Assembly: GCA_019454875.1 (NCBI GenBank)
Contig: JACFNL010000001.1
Span: 7,511-71,510 of the forward strand
Direction of reading: 5' to 3'
DNA from: Candidatus Cloacimonadota bacterium
GTDB taxonomy: Bacteria; Muiribacteriota; UBA6191
DNA: 64,000 nucleotides
Positions within the stretch are counted from its first letter, which is position 1. Every line of letters begins with the position of its first letter. Shown here in pieces: positions 3,938 through 42,786 of this stretch. A program made the translations under genes and the position numbers. The notes below the pieces were generated by a model. The model had not been told where the DNA came from. It did not search any database and saw only the letters and a program-made list of their open reading frames with translations.

Positions 3938-3986
3938 GAAATTCTCCCCATTTTGGCCATATTTTTTGTCATTATACTGAAACCCC

Positions 3987-5492: not shown

Positions 5493-5547
5493 GGATCTGT
5501 TATCGTGAAAATAGGCAGGAGTACTGAGTTCTGGAGGCAAAATTGTT

Positions 5548-24649: not shown

Positions 24650-24650
24650 A

Positions 24651-26483: not shown

Positions 26484-26520
26484 ACACTTCCCTCGCAACA
26501 CTACCTGATCCAATTATAAG

Positions 26521-26552
26521 AAAAAATAGCCCAAGCGCAATGCGTTGGGCTA
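26521..26552 (-). terminator. Rho-independent terminator (minus strand) between the Ser/Thr-rich protein gene and the Cys-rich protein gene
   Basis: A perfect 8-bp stem, TAGCCCAA/TTGGGCTA (26527-26534 / 26545-26552), with a 10-nt loop. On the minus-strand transcript it is followed by UUUUUU (26521-26526). It overlaps a TATAAT -10 element (revcomp of 26513-26518) for the downstream gene. Confidence 0.5.
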
Positions 26553-26570
26553 TTTAGTTAAATCCATTGC

Positions 26571-29589: not shown

Positions 29590-30932
29590 TAAAAATCATC
29601 CCCAACTTTACGCTTCAACTGCGGCCGGTAGCGAGATTCAAAATTGTCCCTTTCCTCAATCTCCTCCAAAAGTGCATCAAAATCCAAAATCTGGTTCTGC
29701 ACCATCTCAAAAGCCCGTTTGTGCAGGGAACGACAATTGGGTAAGGTCTCCAGCTGAGGAAGAATACCCTGCCACCTGCATTCGCGAATCAGGTTTCTAA
29801 GATTGGCATCCGGGATCATGTATTCCCGCACCGGAACCACGGCTTTGTCTAAATCATGATACAGATGCTGGCAAAGGCACAAACGCAGGCTATGGGAAAA
29901 TCGATCCAGAAGACTTTGATTCCCCTCTCTAGGAATCAGACTTGTAAGCGTTTCCAAAGCAGCTGTAACTGATACCCCAGGTACTGTCAAAATCACATTC
30001 ACTGAACTCTCGGCTGCAGTAATCAGAAATTCAAGAAGCTCCAAACTGTCTACAGAGGAAACAAAAAGCCAGTTCACTCCCCCCTTTAAGACATAGCGGA
30101 CTCCCGAAACTATACTTTGCATGTCCGATCCGACTTCTCTTTGGGTAATACTTGCCACTGCATCACGAAACAGAAATTCAATTGGATCTTCAAAGGTTTG
30201 AATTCTTAAAGGTTTTGTCTGGTTCAGATGGTTCAGAATGGCCGCCACAAGTGTACTTTTACCTGCAACCGCTGGACCACTGATTAAATAAAGTCCTCCC
30301 TGTCCCTCTTCCAAAGACTGAAGAATCGTAGATTCAAGGTTTAAGGACGATAGTTCAGGTATATCAAATGGAATCTGCTTTAAACTGATAGCCGGCCGAC
30401 CTGCCTCATGATAGGCACTTACCCGAAATCTGGATAATCCGGGAACAGAGAGAGAAAAATCCACAACCTTATACTGAGATAGAATTGCCGAATAGGCCGG
30501 AGAAATATATTCCCCGATGATAGCCTGTAAATCTCCCACACTAAATATAGGAACATCAGCTAATTCATGCAAAGAGCCACCAACCCTTACATGGGGCTTC
30601 AAATCCGGCTTTAGGTGAAGCACTTCTGCCTTCATTTCCTTGACAGTTTTAAGGATTCTTAAAAACTGCTCCCCTACTTCTTCGCCTTGAAGCTGCACCC
30701 TGCGAGGGCCTGTGCGTTTTTCCACAAGCTCCAGTTTTTGCAGGGCCTGTTTATATAGCTGGGGTTGAACCTGTTTGGTCTTCAACTTTTCCAAAACCCG
30801 CTTTAAAAAAACGATATCTTCATTAGGAAGGGAGGCAATAGCTTCGACAGGCTGCCGGATCAGTACTTCCAAGGGAGCATTAAATACTCCCTGACAATTT
30901 TTGAGTGCTTCCCTGAAGTCTTTCATGAACAT
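29589..30932 (-). CDS. PilT-family protein with a ~100-aa N-terminal extension and degenerate Walker B/His-box
   Basis: Walker A GPAVAGKST is intact and the PilT C-terminal signature LRNLIRE is present. The Asp box reads NWLFVSSVDSLE, with SS in place of GE. The His-box region ILTVPGVSV has no His. The motifs DFSLSVPGLSRFRVSAYHEAG and TFEDPIEF are conserved. Confidence 0.8.
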   Translation of the reverse strand: MFMKDFREALKNCQGVFNAPLEVLIRQPVEAIASLPNEDIVFLKRVLEKLKTKQVQPQLYKQALQKLELVEKRTGPRRVQLQGEEVGEQFLRILKTVKEMKAEVLHLKPDLKPHVRVGGSLHELADVPIFSVGDLQAIIGEYISPAYSAILSQYKVVDFSLSVPGLSRFRVSAYHEAGRPAISLKQIPFDIPELSSLNLESTILQSLEEGQGGLYLISGPAVAGKSTLVAAILNHLNQTKPLRIQTFEDPIEFLFRDAVASITQREVGSDMQSIVSGVRYVLKGGVNWLFVSSVDSLELLEFLITAAESSVNVILTVPGVSVTAALETLTSLIPREGNQSLLDRFSHSLRLCLCQHLYHDLDKAVVPVREYMIPDANLRNLIRECRWQGILPQLETLPNCRSLHKRAFEMVQNQILDFDALLEEIEERDNFESRYRPQLKRKVGDDF

Positions 30933-30978
30933 GTCTGAATCATATACAAATCAGGGGTTGTTTGGCTATCATGCTTCC

Positions 30979-31665
30979 ATGATTTTTCGTTTGATTTTAT
31001 TGATCTTTGCCCTCAATCCCTGCTACGGGGAGATGGTCGGCGGATTTTTTGAGCCAAAATCCAGTCTGTGGGCAGTTCTTAAAACCAGCCCGGACACAAA
31101 AACAATTCACCTTATCAACCAGTGGGTGGCCTCTGGTATCAGCGTTCGTATCATTTCCGACACAAGTCGCATAAATACCGAGGAACAACTCTGGGATCTT
31201 TTGGATGAATCCGTACAAATCCGCTTTTTGGATAGCCCAGATGTTATATCCCATGATATTTTTGTTGTGGATGAAGTTTTGGCTATCTGGGCTCCAACTC
31301 TGTTTTATAATCAAAGCTACCGTCTTTTTTATCCTCGGTTTGAAAAGGACCCGGAATCTGTTTCTGTTTTACAGGCCCAGGTATTGGATGTCTGGAAATC
31401 CCTTTCTTCAACCGCTTCCCAAATTATCTTAAAGGGCTTAAAACATAGAAGCGAGGATACAACCATAGTTACACCTTCTGTTTCAGTTCCCATTTCAGTA
31501 AGTACTAGCAGTGTTGACAGTCCAGGTTTTGTGGCTTCCAAAAATTCCAAGGTGTATCATCCAGCAAATAGTGGTGAAGCCCAGAGGATTCTTGAAGAAA
31601 ACAAAGTTTTTTTTGCCACTGAAGCCGATGCTTTGGCATCGGGACGAAGAAGGGCTAGAAAATAA
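30979..31665 (+). CDS. Secreted PLD-like-fold protein lacking the HKD motif, with a short Ada-like C-terminal tail
   Basis: Start set at the ATG at 30979, giving the signal peptide MIFRLILLIFALNPCYG; the ORF-track start at 30901 overlaps the divergent PilT-like gene. The central region resembles a PLD-like repeat (ISHDIFVVDEVLAIWAP) but has no H-x-K-x4-D. The C-terminus is KVFFATEADALASGRRRARK. Confidence 0.45.
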   Translation: MIFRLILLIFALNPCYGEMVGGFFEPKSSLWAVLKTSPDTKTIHLINQWVASGISVRIISDTSRINTEEQLWDLLDESVQIRFLDSPDVISHDIFVVDEVLAIWAPTLFYNQSYRLFYPRFEKDPESVSVLQAQVLDVWKSLSSTASQIILKGLKHRSEDTTIVTPSVSVPISVSTSSVDSPGFVASKNSKVYHPANSGEAQRILEENKVFFATEADALASGRRRARK

Positions 31666-31670
31666 GCACC

Positions 31671-32744
31671 ATGCTTTCAGTTACACCCAAATCCATTCTG
31701 ATGATTCGCCTCGGGGCACTTGGTGATGTTATTCAGACCCTGCCTGTAGCAACCCAGTTGCGTCTGAGATTTCCCGAGGCCCGGATTGTCTGGGCTATCG
31801 AAGACAAGGCACTTCCCCTAATCCAAAACCAGCCGGGGATAACTCCAATTCTATTTCCTAAACGCAAGGTTTTCTCAAAAAACCCGCTGACTGCTCTGTA
31901 TTATCAATGGAAATTTTCCCAGGAATTACAAACTCATCATTTCGATTTAGCCCTTGATTTACAGGGTCTGTTTAAATCGGGATGGATTGCCTGGGCCAGC
32001 AAGGCCAAAATCAGGGCTGGATTTCACAAAAACAATACCAGAGAAGGAAACCACCTTTTTTTAAGTCATACTATGCCCTGGCAGGACATCAAAGGCCTGC
32101 ACAAAATAGACTATTACCAAAGTATACTGCCCTGGTTAGGCATCCCCCTACAGTCTGTTGATGACCCATTTGGTTTTACATTTACCGAGCAGGAGATCAA
32201 AAATATTCGTATACTGATGCACAGGTTACGCATTCGGGCCAATTCCTATATTGTACTTAACATTGGTACGAGCCGTGTTACTAAGCGCTGGCGTACGGAA
32301 TATTATGTAGAACTGATCCGATTATTGCGCATAAGATATCCAAAACAACAATTGCTGTTATGTGGTGGTGGGGCCGAAGATGCATCCATTGAGATGGAAA
32401 TTCTTAAACAGGTTCAACCAGGAGAAGTGTTATCCAGCGTAAACAAAATCAACCTCAGGGAATTTGCCCAGGTTGTAGCCCATTGTTCTGCCCTAATCTC
32501 TCCTGACAGCCTGGGTCTTCATCTGGCTTCGGCACTGAACAAGCCCGCTGTAGGTCTGATTGGAGGATTTTCTTCTACTCCCCAACAGATTGGAAACTGG
32601 AAAAACCCAGGCAAGTCTTTAGCATCCGATATCAACTGCTTTCCCTGCCGCAGAAGAACCTGCTCCCATCACAGTTGCATGAAAGACTTGACCGCCTCGC
32701 TGATATTTCAGGAAATTGAAAAGATTTTGCCTGACAGAAATTAA
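31671..32744 (+). CDS. Glycosyltransferase family 9 (LPS heptosyltransferase-like)
   Basis: MIRLGALGDVIQTLPVATQLRLRFPEARIVWAIE matches the GT9 N-terminus. GLIGGFSSTP... and a C-terminal Cys cluster are also present. Confidence 0.8.
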   Translation: MLSVTPKSILMIRLGALGDVIQTLPVATQLRLRFPEARIVWAIEDKALPLIQNQPGITPILFPKRKVFSKNPLTALYYQWKFSQELQTHHFDLALDLQGLFKSGWIAWASKAKIRAGFHKNNTREGNHLFLSHTMPWQDIKGLHKIDYYQSILPWLGIPLQSVDDPFGFTFTEQEIKNIRILMHRLRIRANSYIVLNIGTSRVTKRWRTEYYVELIRLLRIRYPKQQLLLCGGGAEDASIEMEILKQVQPGEVLSSVNKINLREFAQVVAHCSALISPDSLGLHLASALNKPAVGLIGGFSSTPQQIGNWKNPGKSLASDINCFPCRRRTCSHHSCMKDLTASLIFQEIEKILPDRN

Positions 32745-33418
32745 AAAATCCGCTCCAGGGCCTTAATTTTTTTTGCAAAAGTAGAGTCCTGGTAACTGAA
32801 ATACGCCATATGCTCATCGATTCCGATCAGCTTAACCTGCCGTAAATCACGGGCACCCTTCAGCCTTTCATCAACCGCATAATAGCGGTTTCCGATAATA
32901 ATAAACTGATCCTGTTCTGTTCCGAATTTTCCAGAAATTTCAAATGCGGGCAACTCCACCTGTTTTACAGGTTTGTCCTTTTCGTCTTTTCGTCTCACAT
33001 CATTCTGTTGGGCGATAATAGCTGCAAAATCGGTTTTCACTTCGTTTTTGATAGCCAGACTCTGCATTTTACTAGCAGGTTTGCTTGGTTCCTGCCTTGT
33101 TGACACGGTAGTATTTCTAAATCCAGAGGCTCTTTCCACCACTGAGGGAATCAAATTTGCTGTCAGCATCGGTTCATGCTGAATTGCAAACGGATAAATA
33201 AACTCTTCTGCCTGAAGTTTGAGCTTCTGGTGTTTTTCCAGTAAATCCAGGGCATTGTCAAGCTGGTAGCGGACTGAGTCCTCTCCATACCCTTCTTCAT
33301 CCATGTAAGAGTCTTCTTCGCCTTCCAGGAAACTGTCAAGGAAGTCGTCCGAACGGATGCAACCGACAAGGGCCACAAACAAAAGGTACGATAAAATCAC
33401 AAAACGACTCATAATCAT
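32741..33418 (-). CDS. Lipoprotein, hypothetical
   Basis: Signal plus lipobox MIMSRFVILSYLLFVALVGC. Acidic N-terminal region. No other motifs. Confidence 0.6.
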   Translation of the reverse strand: MIMSRFVILSYLLFVALVGCIRSDDFLDSFLEGEEDSYMDEEGYGEDSVRYQLDNALDLLEKHQKLKLQAEEFIYPFAIQHEPMLTANLIPSVVERASGFRNTTVSTRQEPSKPASKMQSLAIKNEVKTDFAAIIAQQNDVRRKDEKDKPVKQVELPAFEISGKFGTEQDQFIIIGNRYYAVDERLKGARDLRQVKLIGIDEHMAYFSYQDSTFAKKIKALERIF

Positions 33419-33471
33419 ATTATATCAGATTGTATAAGAGTTCGGAGAATTGGTTACAAACTTTTACATGA

Positions 33472-34671
33472 TTGTCGCCAGTGGGTAAGATTGGTTACAA
33501 TGGGGTTGTGTCTCGACAAATCATTTTTCGCATCCACAATGAACAGCTCTCCTTTGAAAAACAACTTCTAGTGAGTGATGGTCAAACTATCCGTGTTGGA
33601 CGGGTAGAAGAAAACGAGATCTCCGTAAATGACCCCAAAATCTCAAGGCATCATGCCCAGATAGAGTTTCACAAGGATTCAGTGCTAGTACGGGATCTGA
33701 ATTCCAGGCACGGAACATTTTTAAATGGGGAGCGCATGAATCACTCCTTTCATCTAAGAAGTGGCGATGCCATAAAAATTGGAGACACCGAGATTCGTTA
33801 CCGCTTTGAGGATCAGACGAACAAATCTGTTCAGGAATCCAAATCAAATCTGCCTCAATCCCATTACCAGTGGTACCTTCAAAAAGATTTGAGTTCCTAC
33901 CTGAAAAATTCTCCCCAGGAACCATCAGAAGAACTCGACACCTTCTACCGTAAAATGCTTCTGTTTCCTTTTTTCCTGCTCTTTGTGTTTTTTGCCCTCT
34001 TTCCTTCAGCCACCACCTTTTTGGTCTCACTCACATACAGCGGAATCGCCCTGTATTTCTCAAAAAATCTGCTAACCGGCCCTGGAATCAGAAACCACGA
34101 ATCCTTTCAGCTTCCCATCACCAGACGCATCAATAAATTGCAGGCTCAGATTCAGAAAAAAGTAAATTCACTGCCCTCCTTTGACAGAAACCTGCTTGGG
34201 AAAATGCAGAAGGAAATGCTTCAGTTTGTGGAAGAAAAACTTCCCCAGATGGAAAAAGACATTTTTTCACTGAACCGTTCCCTGGTTTCTGGGACTCTGC
34301 AAAGGCTGGAACAAAGAAAAAACATGCTGGAATCCGAGTTAAAAAATGCCGGCGATGAATCGATCTCCCTTCAGATTCAAAACAATCTGTCCCGCCTCAA
34401 CCGTCAAATCAAAATGCAGAAGAATATCAAAAACATCCTGATGCATCTTATTCTTAAACTCGAAGACTATCAGATCCAGCTGGAAATCCTGGAAAGCACC
34501 CTGATAGCCCAGGAATTTCGTGACAACTACACTGACTTTTCTAACCGTTTTCTTGATCTTCAGGAAGACATTGACGAAGTCTACCGCGAATACAATGCCT
34601 TAAAAGTTGAGGAACCATTCCTGCTTACCGAGGAAAAACCTGCCGGGGAAATCGCGGCTCCCGAAACCTGA
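33472..34671 (+). CDS. FHA-domain protein with a TM segment and a C-terminal coiled coil
   Basis: FHA core: TIRVGRVEENEISVNDPKISRHHAQIEFHKDSVLVRDLNSRHGTFLNGERM. A hydrophobic segment follows (LLFPFFLLFVFFALFPSATTFLVSLTYSGIALYF), then a coiled coil. There is no in-frame ATG before the FHA domain, so the start is a non-ATG codon (TTG/GTG) and its exact position is uncertain. Confidence 0.75.
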   Translation: MSPVGKIGYNGVVSRQIIFRIHNEQLSFEKQLLVSDGQTIRVGRVEENEISVNDPKISRHHAQIEFHKDSVLVRDLNSRHGTFLNGERMNHSFHLRSGDAIKIGDTEIRYRFEDQTNKSVQESKSNLPQSHYQWYLQKDLSSYLKNSPQEPSEELDTFYRKMLLFPFFLLFVFFALFPSATTFLVSLTYSGIALYFSKNLLTGPGIRNHESFQLPITRRINKLQAQIQKKVNSLPSFDRNLLGKMQKEMLQFVEEKLPQMEKDIFSLNRSLVSGTLQRLEQRKNMLESELKNAGDESISLQIQNNLSRLNRQIKMQKNIKNILMHLILKLEDYQIQLEILESTLIAQEFRDNYTDFSNRFLDLQEDIDEVYREYNALKVEEPFLLTEEKPAGEIAAPET

Positions 34672-34715
34672 TATCATGTCTTCGTGTAAAGACATTAAAA
34701 AAAAGCAGGAAACCA

Positions 34716-37409
34716 ATGCCAAAACTGATGATTATCGATTCACATGCCATTTTGTTCAAGGCCCATTTTGCCTTTGGTTCCCGCCCCTTGAAAAACTCAA
34801 AAGGCATGACGACCTCGGCCCTGTTTGGCTTTTTGAAAGTGTTTTTCCAGCTCCTAAAAAAATACAATCCTGAATACCTTTGTTTTGCTTTTGACACAAG
34901 CAGACAAACATTCAGAAAGGAAATGTATTCGGAATACAAGGCACATCGCTTGGAAACCCCCCAGGAGTTGATTGAACAGTTTCCCTATGCCCATAAACTG
35001 GCTTCTGCCCTGAATGCCCAGATATTGGCCCTACCCGGCTTTGAGGCCGACGATATTTTAGGTTCTTTGTCCTTGCAGGCTGTTCAGGAAAATCCTGAAA
35101 TTGAAGTTCTTTTAATCACTGGGGATAGAGATTCTTTTCAGCTCATTCAGGATAGAATCAAGGTTGGCTACACTTCCTCCAAATCCCCATCGGGAATTGA
35201 AGAATATGATCTACAGAAGGTAAGCGAAAAATACGAAGGGCTTACCCCAGATGATTTAATAACCTTAAAAGGATTGATGGGTGATACCTCCGATAATATC
35301 CCGGGGATTTCTGGAGTAGGAGAAAAGACCGCCCTTAAACTGGTGCAGGAATTCAAAACCCTGGAAAACCTGTATGAAAATACCCATAACCTGAAAGGCA
35401 AACTCAAAGAGCGGGTGGAGTCCTCAAAAGATATGGCCTTTTTGAGCCGGGAACTTGCCCGTATCAAACGGGATCTGGATCTTGGGATTACTCTTGATGA
35501 TTTGAAGTTTGAACTGAGTTCAAGCCAGGAACTTGAAGATTTGCTCAACGAGCTTGAGTTTTCCTCCCTTAAAAAGGAAGTCCCAAACCTGAAACCTACT
35601 ATTGTTAACAGGGAAAAACACTACCGTCTGATCCTGACTGAAGAGGAACTGGATGAATTGCAGTTTATCCTCAAGGGACAAAAAACTATTGCCTTTGATA
35701 CGGAAACCACAGGACTTGACCCGATTCATTCACAACTCATAGGTATTTCTTTATCCTGGAAAGAGGATCATGCTGCCTATATCCCCATAGCTCATCGTTA
35801 CCTGCAATGTCCTAGGCAGTTAAGCATTGCGACCATCCAAAAATCTCTAAACCCGCTGTTTTCCAGTCAGGACATTCTTTGGGTGGCTCATAACCTCAAA
35901 TTTGATCTTTCCATTTTAAGTAACAACGGGTTTGTCATGCCCCCATCAGTGGCAGATACCCTTTTGATGGCCCATCTGATTCTGCCTTTGGAAAAACTGT
36001 CCTTAAAAGAACTGGCCGTGACCCAGCTTCAGGAGGAAAGGCCCCATTTTGAAGATGTAGTTGATAAAGGAGAGAATTTTTCTGTGGTGAGACTGGACAA
36101 GGCATTGGAATATGCCGCAGCTGATGCTGACAACACCTTTTGTCTTTATCAGAAACTAAGTCCAGAGCTAAATAAGGATACGGGCATTCAAAGCCTGCTT
36201 AACGATATTGAAATGCCACTGATGCCCATTCTTCTTGCCATGGAAAACCAGGGCATTCAAATTGATCCTGAACAGTTTTTTGAATTGAACAGGGAAATGG
36301 AAATGGAAGCCCAGACAGTTGCCAAAAAAATACTTCAGGAAGCTGGGGAAGATATTAATCTTAACTCGACTCAGCAGCTTGCCAAGGTTCTGTTTGAGAA
36401 ACTCAATATACCTCACGGAAAAAAAACTAAATCGGGATACTCCACTGCCAATGATGTGCTGGAGGAACTGGCACCACATTACCCAATCTGTGCCTGGATT
36501 CTGGAGCACAGACACCTACAAAAACTTTTATCCACCTACACTATCCCCCTGCCCAAACAGGCGGATAAAAATCATAGAATCCATACAACCTACTCCCAGA
36601 CCATTGCCATAACAGGAAGATTGTCCTCCAATCATCCCAATCTTCAGAACATACCCGTACGAACCAAATGGGGTAACCGAATCCGCCGCTGTTTTGTTGC
36701 GGCCCCAGGCTCAGTATTTGTCAGTATTGACTATTCCCAGATCGAGCTAAGGGTCATGGCTCATATGGCCCAGGATGAAGCCATGATTGAAGCCTTTCAA
36801 TCTGGCCGAGACATTCACCGCGAAACCGCCGCAAAGATCTTTCGCAAAACACTTGATGATGTCACTAAAGAAGAAAGAGAATCGGCCAAAGCGATTAACT
36901 TTGGCATCATTTACGGTATTAGTCCCTTTGGACTATCACGGCAGTTAGGCATCAATCCTAAAATGGCTGAAGGATTTATCCACACCTATTTCTCCATCTA
37001 CTCTGGAATTAAAAAGTTTATGGACGAAACCTCGGAGATGGTACTTAAAACCGGTGAAATCAGGACCATGTACGGTAGACTAAGACCCATCCCGGAAGCC
37101 TTATCCAAAAACAAAAACTTTCAGGAGGCCGGGAAGCGGGTGGCAATCAACACCAGAATCCAGGGGAGCGCAGCCGAGATCCTGAAACGGGCCATGATTC
37201 AGATCGATAAATTTATAAAAAAATCTGACTGCAAAATTCAAATGCTCTTGCAGGTTCATGACGAGCTGATTTTTGAAGTCGCTTCTGATGAAGTTCACCA
37301 TATGTCAGCAATCAAAAATTTGATGGAAGGTATTGAAAAACTTTCTGTTCCCCTGATTTGTGATATGGAAAAAGGCAAAAGCTGGGGTGAACTGGAGGCC
37401 TTTTTGTGA
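34716..37409 (+). CDS. polA: DNA polymerase I
   Basis: Full-length Pol I: 5'-3' exonuclease N-terminus, 3'-5' exonuclease (AFDTETTGLDP), and polymerase motifs (DYSQIELR, RRxAKxxNFGxxYG, QVHDEL). AGGAAA precedes the ATG. Confidence 0.95.
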   Translation: MPKLMIIDSHAILFKAHFAFGSRPLKNSKGMTTSALFGFLKVFFQLLKKYNPEYLCFAFDTSRQTFRKEMYSEYKAHRLETPQELIEQFPYAHKLASALNAQILALPGFEADDILGSLSLQAVQENPEIEVLLITGDRDSFQLIQDRIKVGYTSSKSPSGIEEYDLQKVSEKYEGLTPDDLITLKGLMGDTSDNIPGISGVGEKTALKLVQEFKTLENLYENTHNLKGKLKERVESSKDMAFLSRELARIKRDLDLGITLDDLKFELSSSQELEDLLNELEFSSLKKEVPNLKPTIVNREKHYRLILTEEELDELQFILKGQKTIAFDTETTGLDPIHSQLIGISLSWKEDHAAYIPIAHRYLQCPRQLSIATIQKSLNPLFSSQDILWVAHNLKFDLSILSNNGFVMPPSVADTLLMAHLILPLEKLSLKELAVTQLQEERPHFEDVVDKGENFSVVRLDKALEYAAADADNTFCLYQKLSPELNKDTGIQSLLNDIEMPLMPILLAMENQGIQIDPEQFFELNREMEMEAQTVAKKILQEAGEDINLNSTQQLAKVLFEKLNIPHGKKTKSGYSTANDVLEELAPHYPICAWILEHRHLQKLLSTYTIPLPKQADKNHRIHTTYSQTIAITGRLSSNHPNLQNIPVRTKWGNRIRRCFVAAPGSVFVSIDYSQIELRVMAHMAQDEAMIEAFQSGRDIHRETAAKIFRKTLDDVTKEERESAKAINFGIIYGISPFGLSRQLGINPKMAEGFIHTYFSIYSGIKKFMDETSEMVLKTGEIRTMYGRLRPIPEALSKNKNFQEAGKRVAINTRIQGSAAEILKRAMIQIDKFIKKSDCKIQMLLQVHDELIFEVASDEVHHMSAIKNLMEGIEKLSVPLICDMEKGKSWGELEAFL

Positions 37410-37870
37410 CATCGGTTTATTTAAACAGTGCAAAAGAAACTAAAGATCTTGGACAGAAAATCGGAGCCATTCTGCCTAAAGGCAGCCTGATTCTTTTATC
37501 TGGCGCAATGGGTGCGGGTAAATCCACCCTATGTCAGGGTATTGCCCAGGGACTTGGTCATACAATGCAAATTTCCTCCCCTTCTTTTACTCTTTTGAAC
37601 ACCTATGAACAAAAGGAGGCCAGAGCAGTCCTGAATCATCTTGACTTTTATAACATAGAAAACTTAGAACATTTGGAGAGAATTGGAATATACGATGTGC
37701 TTGAGGCCGAAGATACTGTGTGTCTGATAGAATGGTGGGAAAAATTCCCCGAGGTAACTCAGGGACTACCGGCCTTAAGACTGTTACTCAGTTTATGTGG
37801 TGAGGGTCGTCGTCTGGAATGGGTTGATGAGTTAAACCTGGGTCAGGATATTTTTGCGGAGAGGATTTGA
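37406..37870 (+). CDS. tsaE: tRNA threonylcarbamoyladenosine biosynthesis protein TsaE
   Basis: P-loop LSGAMGAGKSTL and the TsaE/YjeE family length. The GTG start overlaps the polA TGA stop (GTGA). Confidence 0.85.
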   Translation: MTSVYLNSAKETKDLGQKIGAILPKGSLILLSGAMGAGKSTLCQGIAQGLGHTMQISSPSFTLLNTYEQKEARAVLNHLDFYNIENLEHLERIGIYDVLEAEDTVCLIEWWEKFPEVTQGLPALRLLLSLCGEGRRLEWVDELNLGQDIFAERI

Positions 37871-37872
37871 GC

Positions 37873-39600
37873 ATGTCAGATAAACCTAAATTGGGTCAGA
37901 TTCTGGTGAAATCCGGGGCGATCAGCCTCAAGGATTTGGAATCATTTCTGAAAAATCAGGAAGAACTCAAGGACGAAAGAGGCTACCAGACCAAACTGGG
38001 GGATTTGTTATTAGAAAACAAGCTTGTCACTGAATCCACCCTTGCTATGGCGTTTGCCGAGCAGCAGGGAGTCAAATTCACCGATCTTAGTCGCTACAGC
38101 CCCGATCTGGGGGTTCTGGAAAAAATTCCGTTTTCAATATTGAGCCGCTTCAAGTTTGTACCCCTTTATCTGGATTCTCAGAAGTTAGTGGTTGCCTTGC
38201 ATGATCCTGTGGATACCTTTTTGCTGGATCTTCTCTACAAGGCATTAGGTGTAACCATAGAGCTTCAATCAGCCACCAGATCCCATGTGGAAAATGCCCA
38301 CCGTTCCTGTGTGGACTCCGTTAAAAAGGCCGGTAAGGAAAACCACAATTTTGATATCAATTTTGAGGAGTACCGTCTGATTCTGGAGCAGGAAAAAGAT
38401 GTAAAGCAGGAGATTGAAAAACCGGAAGTAAGCCTGAAAAACAGTCTTAACGAATACAGTCTGGAAATCATTCTCAAGCAGTTTATCAAGGATCAAAGAC
38501 ACTTCGGACTAAAGTTTTCCCCCAATCATCACGAGGTTGTGATAAGTGGCCGCATTCGTGGAGGCTGGGAGTATTATGGCTGTCTGAGCCTGGAAAAATT
38601 TCAGGCCTTCTGGATTAAGGTGAAAAACCTCTGTCAGGTATCAGAGGAAGATACGGCCTACATTTCTCAGGCCTGGTTTGAGTTGCCAATTCGTGAGGGA
38701 GAATCCCATACCTTTCAAGTCACATTCCTCCCTGGACGGAACGGACTGGAACTGTTGCTGGAACCCTATTCTCTGGATAGGCGAAGTTTGTCACTGGAGC
38801 GGGTCGGCCTTTTAGAAACCGATGTAATGCGAATTGCGAATTTTGGATCGGATCCACGAGGAGTTCTGGTTCTTGGTGGCCCACAGTCGGGAAAATCTAC
38901 CACACTTCTGGCATTGATGAATCAAAACCGCCATGCCTCACACCATCAGCTTCTGTTTGAAGAAAGAACCTCATTTACGGTTGCCAATCGTTCGCAAATT
39001 CATCTGGATGAACATCAGTCCCAGTTGGATGGAATCGGTTTTGCCTCACAAAGCAGCATTGAGGTATTTGGAATTGACAGCCTAAGTCCGGAAAGATTTC
39101 ATAGTGTGTTAAGACAGACCAGTGGCAAGATTCTGTACGCCACCCAGAATGCCCATCCCATACTTCCATTTTTGTCACAGATGGAAAAACAGGGAGTTTC
39201 CCTTGGACATCTGTTTTCGCAATTCCGGCTAATTATTCATCAGAAACTGGTGCCTTCAATTTGTACCTGGTGCTCAAGCCTGACTCCCTACCCTGCCGAA
39301 CATATTGCCAAAATGGGACTGAAACCGGAAACATTAAAAAAGCCCCTGTTTTATTTGCCAGCTGGCTGTGATTATTGTGAAAACAAGGGTTATTCTGACT
39401 TTACCCTGATCTATGAAATTCTGCATGCAACCCCGCCAACAGTCAAACTTTTGACGGAAAATCCAATTTCCAATGAACTGGCTATGCATCTGATGAAGGC
39501 TGGAGGACTCAGTTCTCCAAACAATGTGGCACGGGATAAACTCTACAGGGGGCAGATTACTCTGGATACCTACGCAGCAATCCTGCAAAGGAAGCTCTAG
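37873..39600 (+). CDS. GspE/PilB/MshE-family protein with an N-terminal MshE-N (T2SSE_N) c-di-GMP-binding domain and a degenerate ATPase core
   Basis: ATG at 37873, preceded by GGAGAGGA; the ORF-track TTG is at 37867. There are two tandem MshEN 24-residue motifs: KLGQILVKSGAISLKDLESFLKNQ and KLGDLLLENKLVTESTLAMAFAEQQ. Walker A GGPQSGKSTT is intact. The Asp box (FGIDSLSPE) lacks the catalytic Glu, and the His-box (ATQNAHP) is not canonical. The C-terminal tetracysteine CxxC...CxxC is present. Confidence 0.8.
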   Translation: MSDKPKLGQILVKSGAISLKDLESFLKNQEELKDERGYQTKLGDLLLENKLVTESTLAMAFAEQQGVKFTDLSRYSPDLGVLEKIPFSILSRFKFVPLYLDSQKLVVALHDPVDTFLLDLLYKALGVTIELQSATRSHVENAHRSCVDSVKKAGKENHNFDINFEEYRLILEQEKDVKQEIEKPEVSLKNSLNEYSLEIILKQFIKDQRHFGLKFSPNHHEVVISGRIRGGWEYYGCLSLEKFQAFWIKVKNLCQVSEEDTAYISQAWFELPIREGESHTFQVTFLPGRNGLELLLEPYSLDRRSLSLERVGLLETDVMRIANFGSDPRGVLVLGGPQSGKSTTLLALMNQNRHASHHQLLFEERTSFTVANRSQIHLDEHQSQLDGIGFASQSSIEVFGIDSLSPERFHSVLRQTSGKILYATQNAHPILPFLSQMEKQGVSLGHLFSQFRLIIHQKLVPSICTWCSSLTPYPAEHIAKMGLKPETLKKPLFYLPAGCDYCENKGYSDFTLIYEILHATPPTVKLLTENPISNELAMHLMKAGGLSSPNNVARDKLYRGQITLDTYAAILQRKL

Positions 39601-39601
39601 G

Positions 39602-41263
39602 TTACATCAAATCCATGAGCCGAAGCATCAGATCTGCCACAAAATGCGGGGCTGATTTAGGCTTTTTGGTGTCCACAGGAAAAAGGCGGCATTGAGATTC
39701 CTTGCGGGCATCGTGCTGTAGCCATTCCATAAACGCGGCTGACTGAGCTTCATCTATGTGCTTTTTCTCCACAATCGGGCTAAGAAAAGCCTTTTCATAC
39801 AAGGATTCCAGATTCTGAGTCAAATCCTCATCATAAATTGCTTGGGCACTATGTTTGGCCTGAATCAGTCCCGTACGGATGAAATAAAACTCAATACCCT
39901 GATTGGAGCCCATGGAAGGAACAACCACCATAAGATCGGTTTCATGGCTGGAAGGCCCCAACTGATTCAAAGATTCCTCAAAATCCCTGATTAAAAATAC
40001 ACTTCGGTAATTGAGTCTTGGAGAAAACTGTTCTCTTGTTACCAAAATTTCTTCACCCATCCCAGCTAACTTCTGTTTCAAGTCCAGCTCATTAAAAAAT
40101 GGGCCATAGTACAATGCCGGTGCCTTGGGCTGACGATTGACCACAGCTACCAGACCCTTGTCATCAATCACTCTGACAAAATACTGATGAATGCCTGATG
40201 ATGACTTAACGCCCTTGTGCGAGGCGGCAGCTAACACTGCATCAAAATAAGTACTGAATTCATGTACTGTAAAGCTCTCCGCCTTGCGCCACACCAGCTT
40301 TAAGCGGCTGCCACGCATATCCGAATAGACAAGGGAAGACACCTCCTGGCGAAGATTCTTAAATGCCTGACAATAAAACGGTCGTTTATGCCTATCATAA
40401 AAAGCTATATATCCCGGTCCATCAGGCAAATCTTCGATTTGATCCGGAGTCATCAGTACCTTGGGAAAATAATCAGCCCTTGGCTTAATCATAAACTTGC
40501 GAATATCGCCTAGATGGGTAATCCCTGCATCAGAAAGGAGGGAAACAAAACGGATCAGAATTTTGGCTGTAGCCAAAGCATCATCCCAGGCTCTGTGTCT
40601 GTCTGCAATCTCATACCCAAAGTGCTCAGCCAGTACATCCAGTTTATGGGCCTTGGATTCAGGCACAAGTTCTCTTGACATTTTTAATGTACAGATTCCA
40701 GGATTAGGCAGTGCCTGTCCAAAAATCCTCTGCACCTCATAGGCCAAAAAATTTATATCAAACAGAGCATTGTGAGCTACAAGTACGGTTCCCTCACAAA
40801 ATTTCAAAAAATCACCAAGCACAGATTCAATAGAGGGAGCATGCCTTAAATCACTGTCACGAATTCCAGTCAGACGCACAACAAATTCCGGGATCTGACG
40901 ATTTGGCTGAATCAGAGTCTTAAATGACTCGGTAATCTCACCATTTTCTACCAGAACTGCCCCAAGTTCAATGGCTCGGTGTACCGGAGGTGTGCCCCCT
41001 GTTGTTTCAAAATCAAAAACACAGTAGCGAAGCTGATTTAATGGAGTGTTATCAAAATCCTGGGGAGCTAAAAACCAATGTCCGGGCCGAGATTCTATAA
41101 AGCGGATATCATCAGACAACAAGCGGCGAATATAACGCTCACTCCCATCGCCTACCTTCTCAGGGAAAAAAAAGTTGCACAACTCATCGGCACTGAAATC
41201 TCGTCCGTGATGACGAATTACTTCCCATATTTCATCGAGTTTTGATAGACCTGGTGCTTGCAA
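39602..41263 (-). CDS. DnaQ-like 3'-5' exonuclease (DEDDh) fused to a UvrC/Cho-like GIY-YIG domain
   Basis: Exo motifs VFDFETTG, HNALFDINFL and HRAWDDALAT. A GIY-YIG-like segment follows downstream: PGYIAFYDRHKRPFYCQAFKNLRQ. Non-ATG (TTG) start, and the N-terminal ~75 aa are uncharacterised. Convergent with the MshE-like gene; the two stops are 1 nt apart. Confidence 0.7.
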   Translation of the reverse strand: MQAPGLSKLDEIWEVIRHHGRDFSADELCNFFFPEKVGDGSERYIRRLLSDDIRFIESRPGHWFLAPQDFDNTPLNQLRYCVFDFETTGGTPPVHRAIELGAVLVENGEITESFKTLIQPNRQIPEFVVRLTGIRDSDLRHAPSIESVLGDFLKFCEGTVLVAHNALFDINFLAYEVQRIFGQALPNPGICTLKMSRELVPESKAHKLDVLAEHFGYEIADRHRAWDDALATAKILIRFVSLLSDAGITHLGDIRKFMIKPRADYFPKVLMTPDQIEDLPDGPGYIAFYDRHKRPFYCQAFKNLRQEVSSLVYSDMRGSRLKLVWRKAESFTVHEFSTYFDAVLAAASHKGVKSSSGIHQYFVRVIDDKGLVAVVNRQPKAPALYYGPFFNELDLKQKLAGMGEEILVTREQFSPRLNYRSVFLIRDFEESLNQLGPSSHETDLMVVVPSMGSNQGIEFYFIRTGLIQAKHSAQAIYDEDLTQNLESLYEKAFLSPIVEKKHIDEAQSAAFMEWLQHDARKESQCRLFPVDTKKPKSAPHFVADLMLRLMDLM

Positions 41264-41303
41264 AATGAGCCGATTTTTTCATGATGTGAATTACCTTAGT
41301 GAC

Positions 41304-41389
41304 ACGGAGACTATGGGATTTGAACCCATGGTAGGTTGCCCCACACACGATTAGCAATCGTGCGCCTTAAGCCGCTCGGCCAAGTCTCC
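41304..41389 (-). tRNA. tRNA-Ser (anticodon GCT)
   Basis: The reverse complement folds as a type-II tRNA: acceptor GGAGACT/AGTCTCC, anticodon stem CACGA/TCGTG with loop TTGCTAA, a long variable arm, and T-arm GGGTTCAAATCCC. No CCA is encoded. Confidence 0.85.
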
Positions 41390-41402
41390 ATGTGACTAAG
41401 TA

Positions 41403-41489
41403 CGGAAGATGTAGGATTCGAACCCACGGCAGGCTTTCACCCGCAACGGTTTTCAAGACCGCCTCCATAAACCACTCGGACAATCTTCC
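41403..41489 (-). tRNA. tRNA-Ser (anticodon TGA)
   Basis: The reverse complement folds as a type-II tRNA: acceptor GGAAGAT/ATCTTCC, anticodon loop CTTGAAA, a long variable arm, and T-loop TTCGAAT. No CCA is encoded. Confidence 0.85.
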
Positions 41490-41526
41490 TTACTTGCTCG
41501 CAGTATAACCAATGGCATACAAAATA

Positions 41527-42786
41527 TCAACCCTGCATCCTCTGAATTTGCGCGCCTAAATGTATGAGCTTCTGCTCGAGCCTTTCATAACCCCTGTCTA
41601 TATGATACACCCTTTGAATCTCAGAATTTCCTTTAGCAGACAAAGCCGCCAGAACCAGAGCAGCTCCGGCCCTCAAATCCCCGGCCATGACTGGAGCTCC
41701 AAGAAGCCTGGGAACCCCTGTTATCTGAGCCTGATGTCCATCAAGTATAATTTTAGCTCCCATTCGACAAAGCTCGGGAATGTGTAAAAAACGGTTCTCA
41801 TAAACCCCTTCGGAGATCACAGAAACACCTTCAGCCGTGGCCAGATACGACATCATGGGGGCCTGTAAATCTGTTGGAAATCCTGGGTGAGGCCTGGTGG
41901 CAATCTGCACCCCTCTTGGCCTCTCTACAGGCTCAACCAGAATCAGATCCTTTTGATTACGAATCACATTGCCACATTCTCTGAGCTTTTCAAGCAATGC
42001 CCCCAAATGCTCCAGCGGGGCCTGCTGAATCATCAGTGGACTTCTGGTGATACAGGAAAGTAAAATCAGGGTTCCAGCCTCAATTCTGTCAGGCATAACC
42101 CGATACGGAGAAGGGCGAAGTGACAAGACTCCATGTATCTCTACCCTGGCCGTCCCTGCTCCAGTTACCCTGGCCCCACAGGCATTCATAAAATTGGCCA
42201 GATCCACAATCTCCGGCTCTCTGGCCGCATTTTCAATCACGGTCACAGCACCATCAATCAGGGAAGCTGCCATCATGATATTTTCTGTAGCCCCGACACT
42301 AGGAAAATCCAGATGTACAATCCCACCCTTAAGTTTTCCTTCAGCAATAATATTGCCATGACCTATATCTACGGTTGCACCCATTTCTGAAAAAGCCTTC
42401 AAATGATAGTCTACCGGTCTAGGGCCAATAGAACAGCCTCCTGGCAAAGAGACCTCAGCCCTGCCAAACCTTGCCAGAAGTGGCCCCATCACCAGAAAAG
42501 ATGCCCTCATGGTTTTTACTAGTTCATAGGGTGCAACAACAGAATTTACCGTGGATGCATCCACAGTCATTATGTTCTGTTCTCTTAAAAACTCAACCTT
42601 GGCTCCCAGGGTTTCCAGAACCCGTTTCATGGTCCGAACATCCATCAGGTCAGGTACATTTTCAAGCCGGATCTGCCCCTCAACCAGAAGGGTTGCTGCC
42701 AAAATAGGCAAACAGGAGTTTTTAGAACCTGATACAGTCACTACTCCATTTAACGGTCTTCCACCTTCAATCAGAAACTTATCCAT
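41527..42786 (-). CDS. murA: UDP-N-acetylglucosamine 1-carboxyvinyltransferase
   Basis: Full-length MurA: MDKFLIEGGRPLNGVVTVSGSKNSCLPILAA. An active-site Cys-containing loop is present (LPGGCSIGPRPVD). Confidence 0.93.
   Translation of the reverse strand: MDKFLIEGGRPLNGVVTVSGSKNSCLPILAATLLVEGQIRLENVPDLMDVRTMKRVLETLGAKVEFLREQNIMTVDASTVNSVVAPYELVKTMRASFLVMGPLLARFGRAEVSLPGGCSIGPRPVDYHLKAFSEMGATVDIGHGNIIAEGKLKGGIVHLDFPSVGATENIMMAASLIDGAVTVIENAAREPEIVDLANFMNACGARVTGAGTARVEIHGVLSLRPSPYRVMPDRIEAGTLILLSCITRSPLMIQQAPLEHLGALLEKLRECGNVIRNQKDLILVEPVERPRGVQIATRPHPGFPTDLQAPMMSYLATAEGVSVISEGVYENRFLHIPELCRMGAKIILDGHQAQITGVPRLLGAPVMAGDLRAGAALVLAALSAKGNSEIQRVYHIDRGYERLEQKLIHLGAQIQRMQG

What the first reader, a model, noticed from the sequence alone, without database searches (positions are those of the whole stretch)
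37406..39600. MshE-N (c-di-GMP-binding) domain fused to a catalytically degenerate GspE/PilB ATPase, co-operonic with polA and tsaE
The N-terminal domain contains two textbook MshEN motifs, KLGQILVKSGAISLKDLESFLKNQ and KLGDLLLENKLVTESTLAMAFAEQQ, matching RLGxxLxxxGxIxxxxLxxALxxQ. Walker A and the C-terminal CxxC...CxxC zinc motif are intact. The Asp-box Glu is missing (FGIDSL in place of VGEIRD) and the His-box is non-canonical (ATQNAHP in place of STLHTN). By established knowledge MshEN is a high-affinity c-di-GMP receptor module. This is likely a c-di-GMP sensor that has lost ATPase activity. It is the third degenerate secretion-ATPase-family protein in this window. Its placement with overlapping starts and stops (GTGA, then a TTGA/ATG junction) after polA and tsaE is odd for a pilus-type ATPase gene.
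Basis: partly seen in the sequence, partly recalled or inferred. Interest (0 to 1): 0.55.

Follow-up and report, generated by a model that had tools for sequence, protein, structure and literature searches.

The report
PilB-like c-di-GMP sensor without motor residues
This gene encodes a relative of the motor that builds bacterial type IV pili; it keeps a strongly conserved signal-sensing (c-di-GMP-type) front end and a zinc-binding tail but has lost nearly every residue needed to burn ATP, so it most likely acts as a sensor or adaptor in an uncultured bacterial phylum.

Summary
Window 37873-39600 (+) encodes a 575-aa full-length homologue of PilB/MshE/GspE. It lies 2 nt after tsaE, which overlaps polA.

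Of 101 columns that are at least 90% conserved in 24 canonical PilB/GspE proteins, the 19-member family keeps 17. Those kept include the P-loop and the four zinc cysteines. Lost are the ASP box, the Gly-Glu of the atypical Walker B, the HIS box and both arginine fingers.

Conservation is inverted relative to canonical PilB. The c-di-GMP motif region is 80% identical within the family; the N2 domain is 29% and the ATPase core 38%. The gene is under strong purifying selection, so it is not a pseudogene.

"Textbook" overstates the MshEN motifs: Lys replaces Arg, motif II lacks the Gly, and the spacer is 11 residues, not 5.

The family forms a single 50%-identity cluster among 1.84 billion representatives. 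It is confined to candidate phylum UBP17 and always follows polA-tsaE (11/11 loci).

Best reading: a nucleotide-binding but non-motor, c-di-GMP-responsive pseudo-ATPase. This is a new variant of a known kind. The output partner, c-di-GMP binding itself and the pilus gene content of the genome remain untested.

The parts
34716..37409 (+). polA (DNA polymerase I, 897 aa), first gene of the conserved polA-tsaE-pilB-like block
   Evidence: Pfam DNA_pol_A 487 bits, with both the 5'-3' and 3'-5' exonuclease domains. Lies upstream of the family gene in 11/11 loci.
37406..37870 (+). tsaE (t6A ATPase subunit, 154 aa). Its GTG start overlaps the polA stop (GTGA).
   Evidence: Pfam TsaE 113.5 bits. TIGR00150 scores 100.6 against a cut-off of 60.1. 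Sequence read.
37873..39600 (+). pilB/mshE-like pseudo-ATPase gene (575 aa plus stop). ATG start with a GGAGAGGA Shine-Dalgarno sequence upstream.
   Evidence: Identical to NCBI hypothetical protein H3C47_00150.
37888..37959 (+). MshEN motif I, residues 6-29: KLGQILVKSGAISLKDLESFLKNQ
   Evidence: Fits the published relaxed motif in 19/19 family members. Part of the 80%-identical segment.
37960..37992 (+). 11-residue spacer, residues 30-40 (EELKDERGYQT). E30, E35, R36, G37, Y38 and T40 are invariant. The spacer is 5 residues in V. cholerae MshE.
37993..38064 (+). MshEN motif II, residues 41-64: KLGDLLLENKLVTESTLAMAFAEQ. Position 10 is Lys instead of Gly.
   Evidence: The hydrophobic positions and the Gln are conserved in 19/19.
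38071..38322 (+). MshEN_C / T2SSE_N subdomain, residues 67-150. Includes invariant H110-D111-P112.
   Evidence: Pfam PF05157 covers residues 68-149 at 43 bits. Family identity 0.64.
38323..38457 (+). Linker, residues 151-195. Carries a family-specific conserved stretch (G154, N157, F160, D161, F164, R168, L169, E174) followed by a low-confidence loop.
   Evidence: pLDDT below 50 for residues 176-186.
38458..38808 (+). N2 domain, residues 196-312. Both arginine-finger positions are lost: Q282, and E297 (Glu in 18/19). The DIHIEP, RxRxDG and RLPQDGR motifs are also lost.
   Evidence: Family identity 0.29 against 0.51 in canonical proteins.
38809..39237 (+). Degenerate ATPase core, residues 313-455
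38875..38898 (+). Walker A / P-loop, G335-G-P-Q-S-G340-K341-S342
   Evidence: G335 and G340 are invariant. K341 is Lys in 17/19 and Arg in 2/19.
38959..38976 (+). ASP-box position, residues 363-368 (EERTSF where canonical proteins have EDPVEY)
   Evidence: First Glu kept in 13/19, Asp in 5/19, Pro in 0/19, second Glu in 0/19.
39058..39090 (+). Walker B region, residues 396-406 (IEVFGIDSLSP where canonical proteins have DIIMVGEIRD). Invariant D402 sits at the canonical Gly column. S403 sits at the catalytic-Glu column.
   Evidence: MAFFT and hmmalign give this register. hhalign puts D402 on the Glu column instead.
39124..39159 (+). HIS-box position, residues 418-429 (GKILYATQNAHP where canonical proteins have GHLVFSTLHTND)
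   Evidence: His kept in 0/19.
39238..39597 (+). Zinc-binding (C464xxC467 ... C499xxC502) and C-terminal subdomain, residues 456-575. More conserved here than in canonical PilB.
   Evidence: All four Cys invariant. Family identity 0.61 against 0.38 in canonical proteins.
39602..41263 (-). Convergent DEDD (RNase_T) exonuclease gene. Its stop lies 1 nt from the pilB-like stop.
   Evidence: Pfam RNase_T 132.6 bits. Present downstream in most related loci.

Best explanation
The gene encodes a lineage-specific descendant of the PilB/MshE pilus-assembly ATPase that has turned from a motor into a sensor or adaptor.

Shown:
- It has the full PilB architecture: an MshEN_N four-helix bundle, MshEN_C, N2, a RecA-like CTD and a tetracysteine zinc module.
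- The c-di-GMP-type motifs, the zinc module and the C-terminal tail are the most conserved parts. The catalytic core is the least conserved.
- The P-loop is kept, and an invariant Asp sits at the classical Walker B position.
- The catalytic Glu, the ASP-box Glu, the HIS box and both trans-acting arginine fingers are gone. One finger is replaced by a near-invariant Glu.
- The whole protein is under strong purifying selection.

Inferred:
- The N-terminal bundle binds c-di-GMP or a close cyclic dinucleotide. An extended, invariant ERGYQT loop may modify this binding.
- The core still binds ATP·Mg as a structural or allosteric ligand. It cannot run the cooperative hydrolysis cycle that turns PilC.
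- Ligand state is passed on by protein-protein contacts of the hyper-conserved zinc/C-terminal domain and the conserved N1-N2 linker. This is analogous to the motor-independent signalling role of Myxococcus PilB.

The partner and the regulated process are unknown. Adjacency to polA-tsaE reflects conserved lineage synteny and probable co-transcription, not a demonstrated functional link.
For: - Full-length homology: hhalign probability 100%, 546 columns. PDB phmmer best hit is Geobacter PilB at 8e-29. The AF2 model has pLDDT 81.9. Foldseek hits the PilF/PilB/GspE cores at E about 1e-26 with TM about 0.69.
- Motif census: 17 of 101 canonical columns are kept. Register confirmed by hmmalign. Residue roles taken from PMC5424180.
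- Inverted conservation, family against canonical: c-di-GMP motif region 0.80 vs 0.33; N2 0.29 vs 0.51; core 0.38 vs 0.61; C-terminus 0.61 vs 0.38.
- Purifying selection: against the 96%-identical orthologue in L001, 302 of about 390 synonymous sites differ (saturated) while dN is 0.028. dN is 0.055 in N2 and 0.036 in the core.
- c-di-GMP module: NF053729 scores 38.4 against a cut-off of 38. Motif I fits the relaxed motif in 19/19. All Leu and Gln contact positions are kept in both motifs. Lys at motif position 1 also occurs in nanomolar binders: PilF GSPII-B at 6 nM, CtPilB and DgPilB2 (PMC11731258).
- Family and synteny: 19 full-length members at 42-53% identity, then a drop to 23%. One 50% cluster in 1.84 billion representatives, with no intermediates. 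polA-tsaE-X order in 11/11 loci.
- Precedent for motor-independent PilB signalling.
Against:
- Motif II lacks the turn Gly in 18/19 and the spacer is 11 rather than 5 residues. Affinity or specificity for c-di-GMP could therefore be altered or lost, as in XpsE and PilF GSPII-A.
- The NF053729 score is only just at its cut-off.
- No GGDEF, EAL, HD-GYP or PilZ gene was seen in the sequence available. c-di-GMP signalling in this lineage is therefore unverified.
- Five of 19 members have a classical Walker B 'DE' pair and 17/19 keep the P-loop Lys. Slow or non-canonical hydrolysis cannot be excluded.
- No partner gene is identified. No T4P or T2SS platform, pilin or secretin gene lies within the window or within ±10 kb in related loci.
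Confidence: 0.55

Rival explanations
1. It is still a working, fast-diverged assembly ATPase. It would use a reinvented active site in which a classical Walker B Asp (D402) replaces the ASP-box Glu for Mg2+ coordination. It would power a highly divergent pilus or secretion machine in UBP17.
For: - The P-loop GxxxxGK[ST] is kept in 17/19. D402 is invariant at the Walker B position. Five of 19 members have a 'DE' pair.
- The core is under purifying selection.
- The fold is preserved.
Against: - Both arginine fingers are absent in 19/19. One is replaced by Glu in 18/19. The HIS-box His is absent in 19/19.
- The residue at the catalytic-Glu column is G, E, Q or S.
- N2 and the core are the least conserved parts. 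This is the opposite of canonical PilB.
- No platform or pilin genes were found nearby.
Confidence: 0.15
2. The N-terminal domain no longer binds c-di-GMP and is only a protein-docking domain, as in Xanthomonas XpsE/PilB or PilF GSPII-A. The protein would then be a structural pseudo-ATPase or scaffold with no second-messenger input.
For: - The strict motif is matched by 0/19. The motif II Gly is replaced in 18/19. The spacer is 11 residues.
- NF053729 is only marginally above its cut-off.
- No c-di-GMP enzymes were seen in the available sequence.
- MshEN-like domains that do not bind c-di-GMP are documented.
Against: - Every hydrophobic and Gln contact position is invariant or conservatively kept in both motifs. 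The segment is 80% identical across a family that is otherwise 42-53% identical.
- Lys at motif position 1 is found in the tightest known binders.
Confidence: 0.2
3. It is a regulatory, non-catalytic subunit that acts together with the two degenerate PilT-like proteins encoded about 7 kb away. It could form mixed rings with them or compete with them at one membrane platform.
For: - Three T2SSE-family genes with degenerate motifs lie within 11 kb.
- The PilT-like pair is itself a conserved lineage-specific unit: FHA/YscD-like, GT9, unknown, PilT-like 1, PilT-like 2.
Against: - In L012 and L013 the PilT-like cluster is not near polA-tsaE-pilB-like. In 9/9 genome loci no PilT-like homologue lies within 10 kb of the pilB-like gene.
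- The PilT-like family has only 5 clusters, against about 20 for the pilB-like family.
Confidence: 0.1

Closest known systems
Vibrio cholerae MshE and P. aeruginosa PA14_29490 (MshEN-T2SSE ATPases; PDB 5HTL for the N-terminal domain)
   Same: Same domain order: two tandem 24-residue motifs forming a four-helix bundle, then MshEN_C, N2, CTD and a tetracysteine module. There is sequence homology to 5HTL (E 2e-6 for residues 5-123). The Leu and Gln contact positions are kept.
   Different: - Lys replaces Arg at position 1 of both motifs.
- Motif II lacks the Gly.
- The spacer is 11 residues, not 5.
- The catalytic Glu, ASP box, HIS box and Arg fingers are lost.
- TIGR02538 scores 110.7 bits against a cut-off of 675.65.
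Geobacter PilB (PDB 5TSG/5TSH/5ZFR) and Thermus PilF (5OIU, 6F8L)
   Same: Best sequence and fold matches. PilF GSPII-B also has Lys at motif position 1 and binds c-di-GMP at 6 nM.
   Different: These are active hexameric motors. They have E357 (ASP box), E395 (catalytic Glu), R271 and R286 (fingers) and H413 and H420 (HIS box). The family lacks all of these.
Myxococcus xanthus PilB acting as a signalling protein for exopolysaccharide production
   Same: A functional analogy. The output depends on the nucleotide or c-di-GMP state of PilB rather than on pilus assembly.
   Different: M. xanthus PilB is also a competent motor. Here the motor chemistry appears to have been given up altogether.
Xanthomonas XpsE / PilB (degenerate MshEN with an intact ATPase) and FimX-type degenerate-enzyme receptors
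   Same: One module of a two-module c-di-GMP/ATPase protein has degenerated while the protein remains functional.
   Different: The polarity is opposite. In Xanthomonas the sensor module is degenerate and the ATPase is intact. Here the sensor is the best conserved part and the ATPase is degenerate.

Membership tests
PilB/GspE clade of PilT-like ASCE ATPases (Pfam T2SSE; TIGR02538/TIGR02533) | Full-length homology and the N1-N2-CTD fold | tested here: met
   hhalign probability 100% over 546 columns. Foldseek E about 1e-26 to the PilF/PilB/GspE cores. Pfam T2SSE 53.4 bits against a cut-off of 24.9.
PilB/GspE clade of PilT-like ASCE ATPases (Pfam T2SSE; TIGR02538/TIGR02533) | Walker A GxxxxGK[ST] | tested here: met
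   G335, G340 and K341-S342 are present. Lys in 17/19 and Arg in 2/19 family members.
PilB/GspE clade of PilT-like ASCE ATPases (Pfam T2SSE; TIGR02538/TIGR02533) | Atypical Walker B (Gly) followed at once by the catalytic Glu (GE[I/M]RD) | tested here: not met
   The Gly column holds invariant D402. The Glu column holds G in 9, E in 5, Q in 3 and S in 2 members. The Arg and Asp of RD are kept in 0/19. hhalign shifts the register by one, giving Glu to Asp.
PilB/GspE clade of PilT-like ASCE ATPases (Pfam T2SSE; TIGR02538/TIGR02533) | ASP box (EDPxE) with the Mg-coordinating Glu | tested here: not met
   The query has EERTS. First Glu in 13/19, Asp in 5/19, Pro in 0/19, last Glu in 0/19.
PilB/GspE clade of PilT-like ASCE ATPases (Pfam T2SSE; TIGR02538/TIGR02533) | HIS box (TGH...STLHTN) | tested here: not met
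   His kept in 0/19. The T415/G416 columns are kept in 0/19 and 2/19.
PilB/GspE clade of PilT-like ASCE ATPases (Pfam T2SSE; TIGR02538/TIGR02533) | Two trans-acting arginine fingers in N2 | tested here: not met
   The first finger column holds N, T, S, Q, G or A (Arg in 0/19). The second holds Glu in 18/19 and Ser in 1/19. Roles taken.
PilB/GspE clade of PilT-like ASCE ATPases (Pfam T2SSE; TIGR02538/TIGR02533) | Tetracysteine zinc motif | tested here: met
   C464, C467, C499 and C502 are invariant in all 43 aligned sequences.
PilB/GspE clade of PilT-like ASCE ATPases (Pfam T2SSE; TIGR02538/TIGR02533) | Score above the NCBIfam equivalog cut-off | tested here: not met
   TIGR02538 scores 110.7 against 675.65. 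TIGR02533 scores 70 against 630.25.
PilB/GspE clade of PilT-like ASCE ATPases (Pfam T2SSE; TIGR02538/TIGR02533) | Genomic association with platform (PilC/GspF), PilM/GspL, pilin or secretin genes | tested here: inconclusive
   None were found in the 64-kb window or within ±10 kb of 11 related loci. The rest of the genome could not be read.
MshEN c-di-GMP receptor domain (Wang et al. 2016; Pfam PF05157; NCBIfam NF053729) | Two tandem 24-residue motifs RLGxx(L/V/I)(L/V/I)xxG(L/V/I)(L/V/I)xxxxLxxxLxxQ | tested here: inconclusive
   The strict motif is matched by 0/19. Motif I fits the relaxed published motif in 19/19. Motif II fits it in 1/19 and otherwise fails only at position 10.
MshEN c-di-GMP receptor domain (Wang et al. 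2016; Pfam PF05157; NCBIfam NF053729) | 5-residue spacer giving a 53-residue domain | tested here: not met
   The spacer is 11 residues in 19/19, with E30, E35, R36, G37, Y38 and T40 invariant.
MshEN c-di-GMP receptor domain (Wang et al. 2016; Pfam PF05157; NCBIfam NF053729) | Profile score above the curated cut-offs | tested here: met
   PF05157 scores 43 against 23.1. NF053729 scores 38.4 against 38, which is marginal.
MshEN c-di-GMP receptor domain (Wang et al. 2016; Pfam PF05157; NCBIfam NF053729) | Four-helix bundle (alpha1-alpha4) followed by the alpha/beta MshEN_C subdomain | tested here: met
   The AF2 model has helices at 7-14, 19-36, 42-48 and 54-65, followed by beta/alpha elements from 79 to 153.
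MshEN c-di-GMP receptor domain (Wang et al. 2016; Pfam PF05157; NCBIfam NF053729) | Measured, specific c-di-GMP binding | not testable with these tools
   Requires ITC or DRaCALA on residues 1-150.

The most novel reading that the evidence does not exclude
A PilB-derived pseudo-ATPase has left pilus assembly entirely and become a housekeeping cyclic-dinucleotide switch of candidate phylum UBP17. In this reading it binds ATP·Mg through a re-evolved classical Walker B Asp but does not hydrolyse it. A 'glutamate finger' (E297) replaces the phosphate-contacting arginine. The invariant ERGYQT insertion retunes ligand affinity or specificity. The hyper-conserved zinc/C-terminal domain controls a non-pilus target, such as envelope polysaccharide synthesis or DNA transactions linked to the conserved polA / DEDD-exonuclease neighbourhood.
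Probability: 0.2. Interest if true: 0.65.

Novelty: new variant of a known kind. Interest (0 to 1): 0.45.

Why it matters
MshEN-ATPase fusions are among the most widespread high-affinity c-di-GMP receptors. In every studied case the output is thought to be control of a working motor. This family has an intact, hyper-conserved sensor and zinc domain and a gutted, fast-evolving but still selected catalytic core. That makes it a natural separation-of-function mutant. It would let one ask what PilB-type proteins signal independently of ATP turnover, a question raised by Myxococcus PilB. It would also show which surfaces carry that signal. In addition, it shows that automated annotation is misleading for this clade: the gene is called 'PilB' by JGI and 'hypothetical' by NCBI. 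The practical limit is that the lineage is uncultured, so tests must be done with recombinant protein.

Tried and rejected
- Paralogue search: phmmer with the ORF against all window ORFs found nothing. The two PilT-like ORFs were visible only to profile searches.
- Pseudogene or relic: rejected. The ORF is intact in at least 19 lineages, and dN is 0.028 with synonymous sites saturated.
- Intermediates to canonical PilB: the exhaustive profile search gave only one 50% cluster for the family. The next-best hits (P0123, P0125, P0126) are canonical multi-MshEN PilBs whose scores are inflated by repeated N-domains.
- Functional link to polA or tsaE: the order is conserved, but the whole polA-to-opp region is also syntenic. 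In L007 and L008 a gap of about 140-290 nt separates tsaE from the gene. I therefore treat this as synteny, not evidence of function.
- Genome-wide check for T4P or c-di-GMP genes: not possible. Contig walking with the look-up of encoding contigs failed for three window proteins because their exact products are not on record. Regex scans for GGDEF, HD-GYP, PilZ and prepilin motifs in the window and loci found nothing real.
- Promoter and terminator scan of 33300-41600: counts equal the shuffled expectation, so it is uninformative.
- Literature: no report of a degenerate-ATPase MshEN/PilB family in the held library.

Full report
**What is at the coordinates**

The interval 37406-39600 holds two plus-strand genes. 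The first is tsaE (37406-37870). It scores Pfam TsaE 113.5 bits, and TIGR00150 100.6 against a cut-off of 60.1. The second is a 575-aa ORF.

The mechanical ORF starts at TTG 37867. ATG 37873 is the better start. It is preceded by GGAGAGGA, and it gives the N-terminus M-[SA]-[DE]-x-K-x-KLG that is conserved in all 11 related loci.

tsaE starts with a GTG that overlaps the polA stop (GTGA). It ends 2 nt before the ATG. A convergent DEDD exonuclease gene ends 1 nt after the ORF's stop.

**Identity**

Pfam finds T2SSE (53.4 bits) and MshEN/T2SSE_N (43 bits). NCBIfam finds the 53-residue 'c-di-GMP_motif' domain over residues 8-66 at 38.4 bits, against a cut-off of 38. The PilB equivalog TIGR02538 reaches only 110.7 bits of the 675.65 required.

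The best solved relative is Geobacter PilB, at 8e-29 over residues 5-544. A profile-profile comparison of the family with 12 canonical PilB/GspE proteins gives probability 100% over 546 columns. An AlphaFold2 model (pLDDT 81.9) matches the PilF, PilB and GspE cores at E about 1e-26 and TM about 0.69.

This is a full-length PilB/MshE homologue, not a chance motif match. The relaxed MshEN pattern occurs only twice in the six-frame translation of the whole window. Both occurrences are in this protein.

**The family**

The protein is identical to NCBI 'hypothetical protein H3C47_00150' from a MAG labelled Candidatus Cloacimonetes. Eighteen further full-length relatives share 42-53% identity. After them, identity drops abruptly to 23% for canonical PilB/GspE.

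An exhaustive profile search of 1.84 billion cluster representatives found one full-length representative (979 bits) and three fragments. The next hits (206-281 bits) are canonical PilBs with several MshEN repeats and intact GPTGSGKS / EDPIEY / GEMRD / STLHTN motifs. There are no intermediates.

In GTDB species genomes the gene was found in nine MAGs. One is 'bacterium UBP17_UBA6191' at 96% identity. The order polA-tsaE-gene holds in 11/11 loci. The DEDD exonuclease, murA and opp genes usually follow. Because the whole region is syntenic, the placement is a lineage feature, not proof of a functional link.

**The ATPase motifs**

McCallum et al. (PMC5424180) describe the following as conserved across PilT-like ATPases:
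- Walker A;
- an atypical Walker B in which Gly replaces the usual Asp;
- the catalytic Glu that follows it directly;
- a Mg-coordinating Glu of the ASP box;
- two arginine fingers;
- a HIS-box histidine.

I aligned 19 family members with 24 canonical proteins. Of 101 columns that are at least 90% conserved in the canonical set, only 17 are kept in the family.

Kept:
- the P-loop (G335, G340, K341; Lys in 17/19 and Arg in 2/19);
- the four zinc cysteines;
- a few N- and C-terminal residues.

Lost:
- the ASP box (EERTS where canonical proteins have EDPVE; last Glu in 0/19);
- the Gly-Glu-x-Arg-Asp of Walker B;
- the HIS box (His in 0/19);
- both arginine fingers. The first is kept in 0/19. The second is Glu in 18/19, a charge reversal.
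- the N2 signatures DIHIEP, RxRxDG and RLPQDGR.

MAFFT and an independent hmmalign to a canonical HMM both place an invariant Asp (D402) in the column of the atypical Gly. That restores a classical hhhhD Walker B. The catalytic-Glu column then holds G, E, Q or S. hhalign shifts the register by one, which makes it a Glu-to-Asp change.

**Conservation pattern and selection**

Mean pairwise identity within the family, compared with canonical PilBs over the same columns:

| Region | Family | Canonical |
|---|---|---|
| c-di-GMP motif region | 0.80 | 0.33 |
| MshEN_C | 0.64 | 0.32 |
| N2 | 0.29 | 0.51 |
| ATPase core | 0.38 | 0.61 |
| Zinc/C-terminal part | 0.61 | 0.38 |

The pattern is inverted. 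Even so, the degenerate parts are not decaying. Against the UBA6191 orthologue, synonymous sites are saturated (302 of about 390 differ). dN is 0.028 overall, 0.055 in N2 and 0.036 in the core.

**The sensor module**

Wang et al. (PMC5013675) define two 24-residue motifs joined by a 5-residue spacer. They also give a relaxed search motif.
- No family member fits the strict motif. Lys replaces Arg at position 1, and Ala sits at position 11 of motif I.
- Motif I fits the relaxed motif in 19/19.
- Motif II fails only at position 10 (K/Q/E/N in place of G/A/S) in 18/19.
- The spacer is 11 residues, with E30, E35, R36, G37, Y38 and T40 invariant.

All Leu and Gln contact positions are conserved. 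The Asp-Pro of MshEN_C is also conserved (D111-P112). Lys at position 1 is not a defect. PilF GSPII-B (Kd 6 nM), CtPilB and DgPilB2 all have it (PMC11731258). The AF2 model shows the expected four helices.

c-di-GMP binding is therefore likely but not assured. The invariant insertion could change affinity or specificity.

**Context**

Two PilT-like ORFs lie at 29589-30932 and 28558-29589 (-). Both score below the TIGR01420 cut-off (177 and 128 bits against 319) and both have degenerate motifs. They belong to a small lineage-specific family. Their cluster (FHA/YscD-like, GT9, unknown, PilT-like 1, PilT-like 2) is conserved in two other contigs that lack polA nearby.

No platform, pilin, secretin or c-di-GMP-metabolising gene was found in the window or the fetched loci. 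The rest of the genome could not be read.

**Interpretation**

The best-supported reading has three parts:
- the protein senses a cyclic dinucleotide with its N-terminal bundle;
- it still binds, but does not cyclically hydrolyse, ATP;
- it transmits state through its constrained zinc/C-terminal domain and N1-N2 linker.

This is a sensor or adaptor derived from a motor. It is analogous to the motor-independent signalling role of Myxococcus PilB. I give this reading a confidence of about 0.55.

The rivals are:
- a still-active ATPase with a reinvented site (0.15);
- a scaffold whose N-domain no longer binds c-di-GMP (0.2);
- a regulatory partner of the PilT-like pair (0.1).

I found no report of such a family in the held literature. 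I rate it a new variant of a known kind, of moderate interest.

Noticed in passing
window 28558-30932 (-): There are two tandem PilT/PilU-like genes, of 447 and 343 aa.
- TIGR01420 scores 177 and 128 bits against a cut-off of 319.
- The first keeps Walker A, the ASP box (FEDPIEF) and an AIRNLIRE-like motif (LRNLIRE). It has VSSVDS where canonical proteins have VGEMRD, and it has no HIS box.
- The second has GTPDSGRST (P-loop Lys replaced by Arg), GD in place of GE, and no HIS box.
- In more distant relatives of the first, the catalytic Glu is still present (LSEIR). Degeneration therefore looks progressive.
   Followed up: partly
window 28558-34671; L012 6870-12370; L013 7888-12222: The PilT-like pair sits in a small conserved cluster with an unknown 217-254-aa gene and a family-9 glycosyltransferase. 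The window and L012 also have an FHA / YscD-cytoplasmic-domain membrane protein (window 33472-34671). No platform or pilin gene is present. This may be an uncharacterised envelope-related module.
   Followed up: partly
window 23324-28484 (-): Three large ORFs (637, 620 and 453 aa) lie directly downstream of the PilT-like pair. None has a Pfam or NCBIfam hit. They have N-terminal hydrophobic segments and long Ser/Thr/Pro/Ala- or Cys/Asp-rich low-complexity regions. They are not conserved next to the PilT-like pair in L012 or L013.
   Followed up: partly
window 11910-13340 (+): A FapA (flagellar assembly protein A / DUF342) homologue scores strongly: 241.6 bits for the beta-solenoid domain and 135.9 bits for the N-terminal domain. 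No other flagellar gene was recognised in the window.
   Followed up: no
window 38323-38400 (residues 151-175 of the pilB-like protein): The N1-N2 linker is variable in canonical PilB. Here it carries a family-specific conserved stretch, SGRxNxDFD(V/I)xF(E/D)xYRLI, with G154, N157, F160 and F164 invariant. It is a candidate partner-binding element.
   Followed up: no
window 1286-5708 (-), 10220-11869 (+), 13348-15261 (-): Several large ORFs (905, 573, 549 and 637 aa) have no Pfam family at E <= 1e-4. This fits the poorly characterised gene content of the candidate phylum.
   Followed up: no
window 39598-39604: The pilB-like gene and the DEDD exonuclease gene converge with only 1 nt between their stop codons. 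That leaves no intergenic room for a terminator. The consensus terminator scan found nothing above the shuffled expectation.
   Followed up: partly
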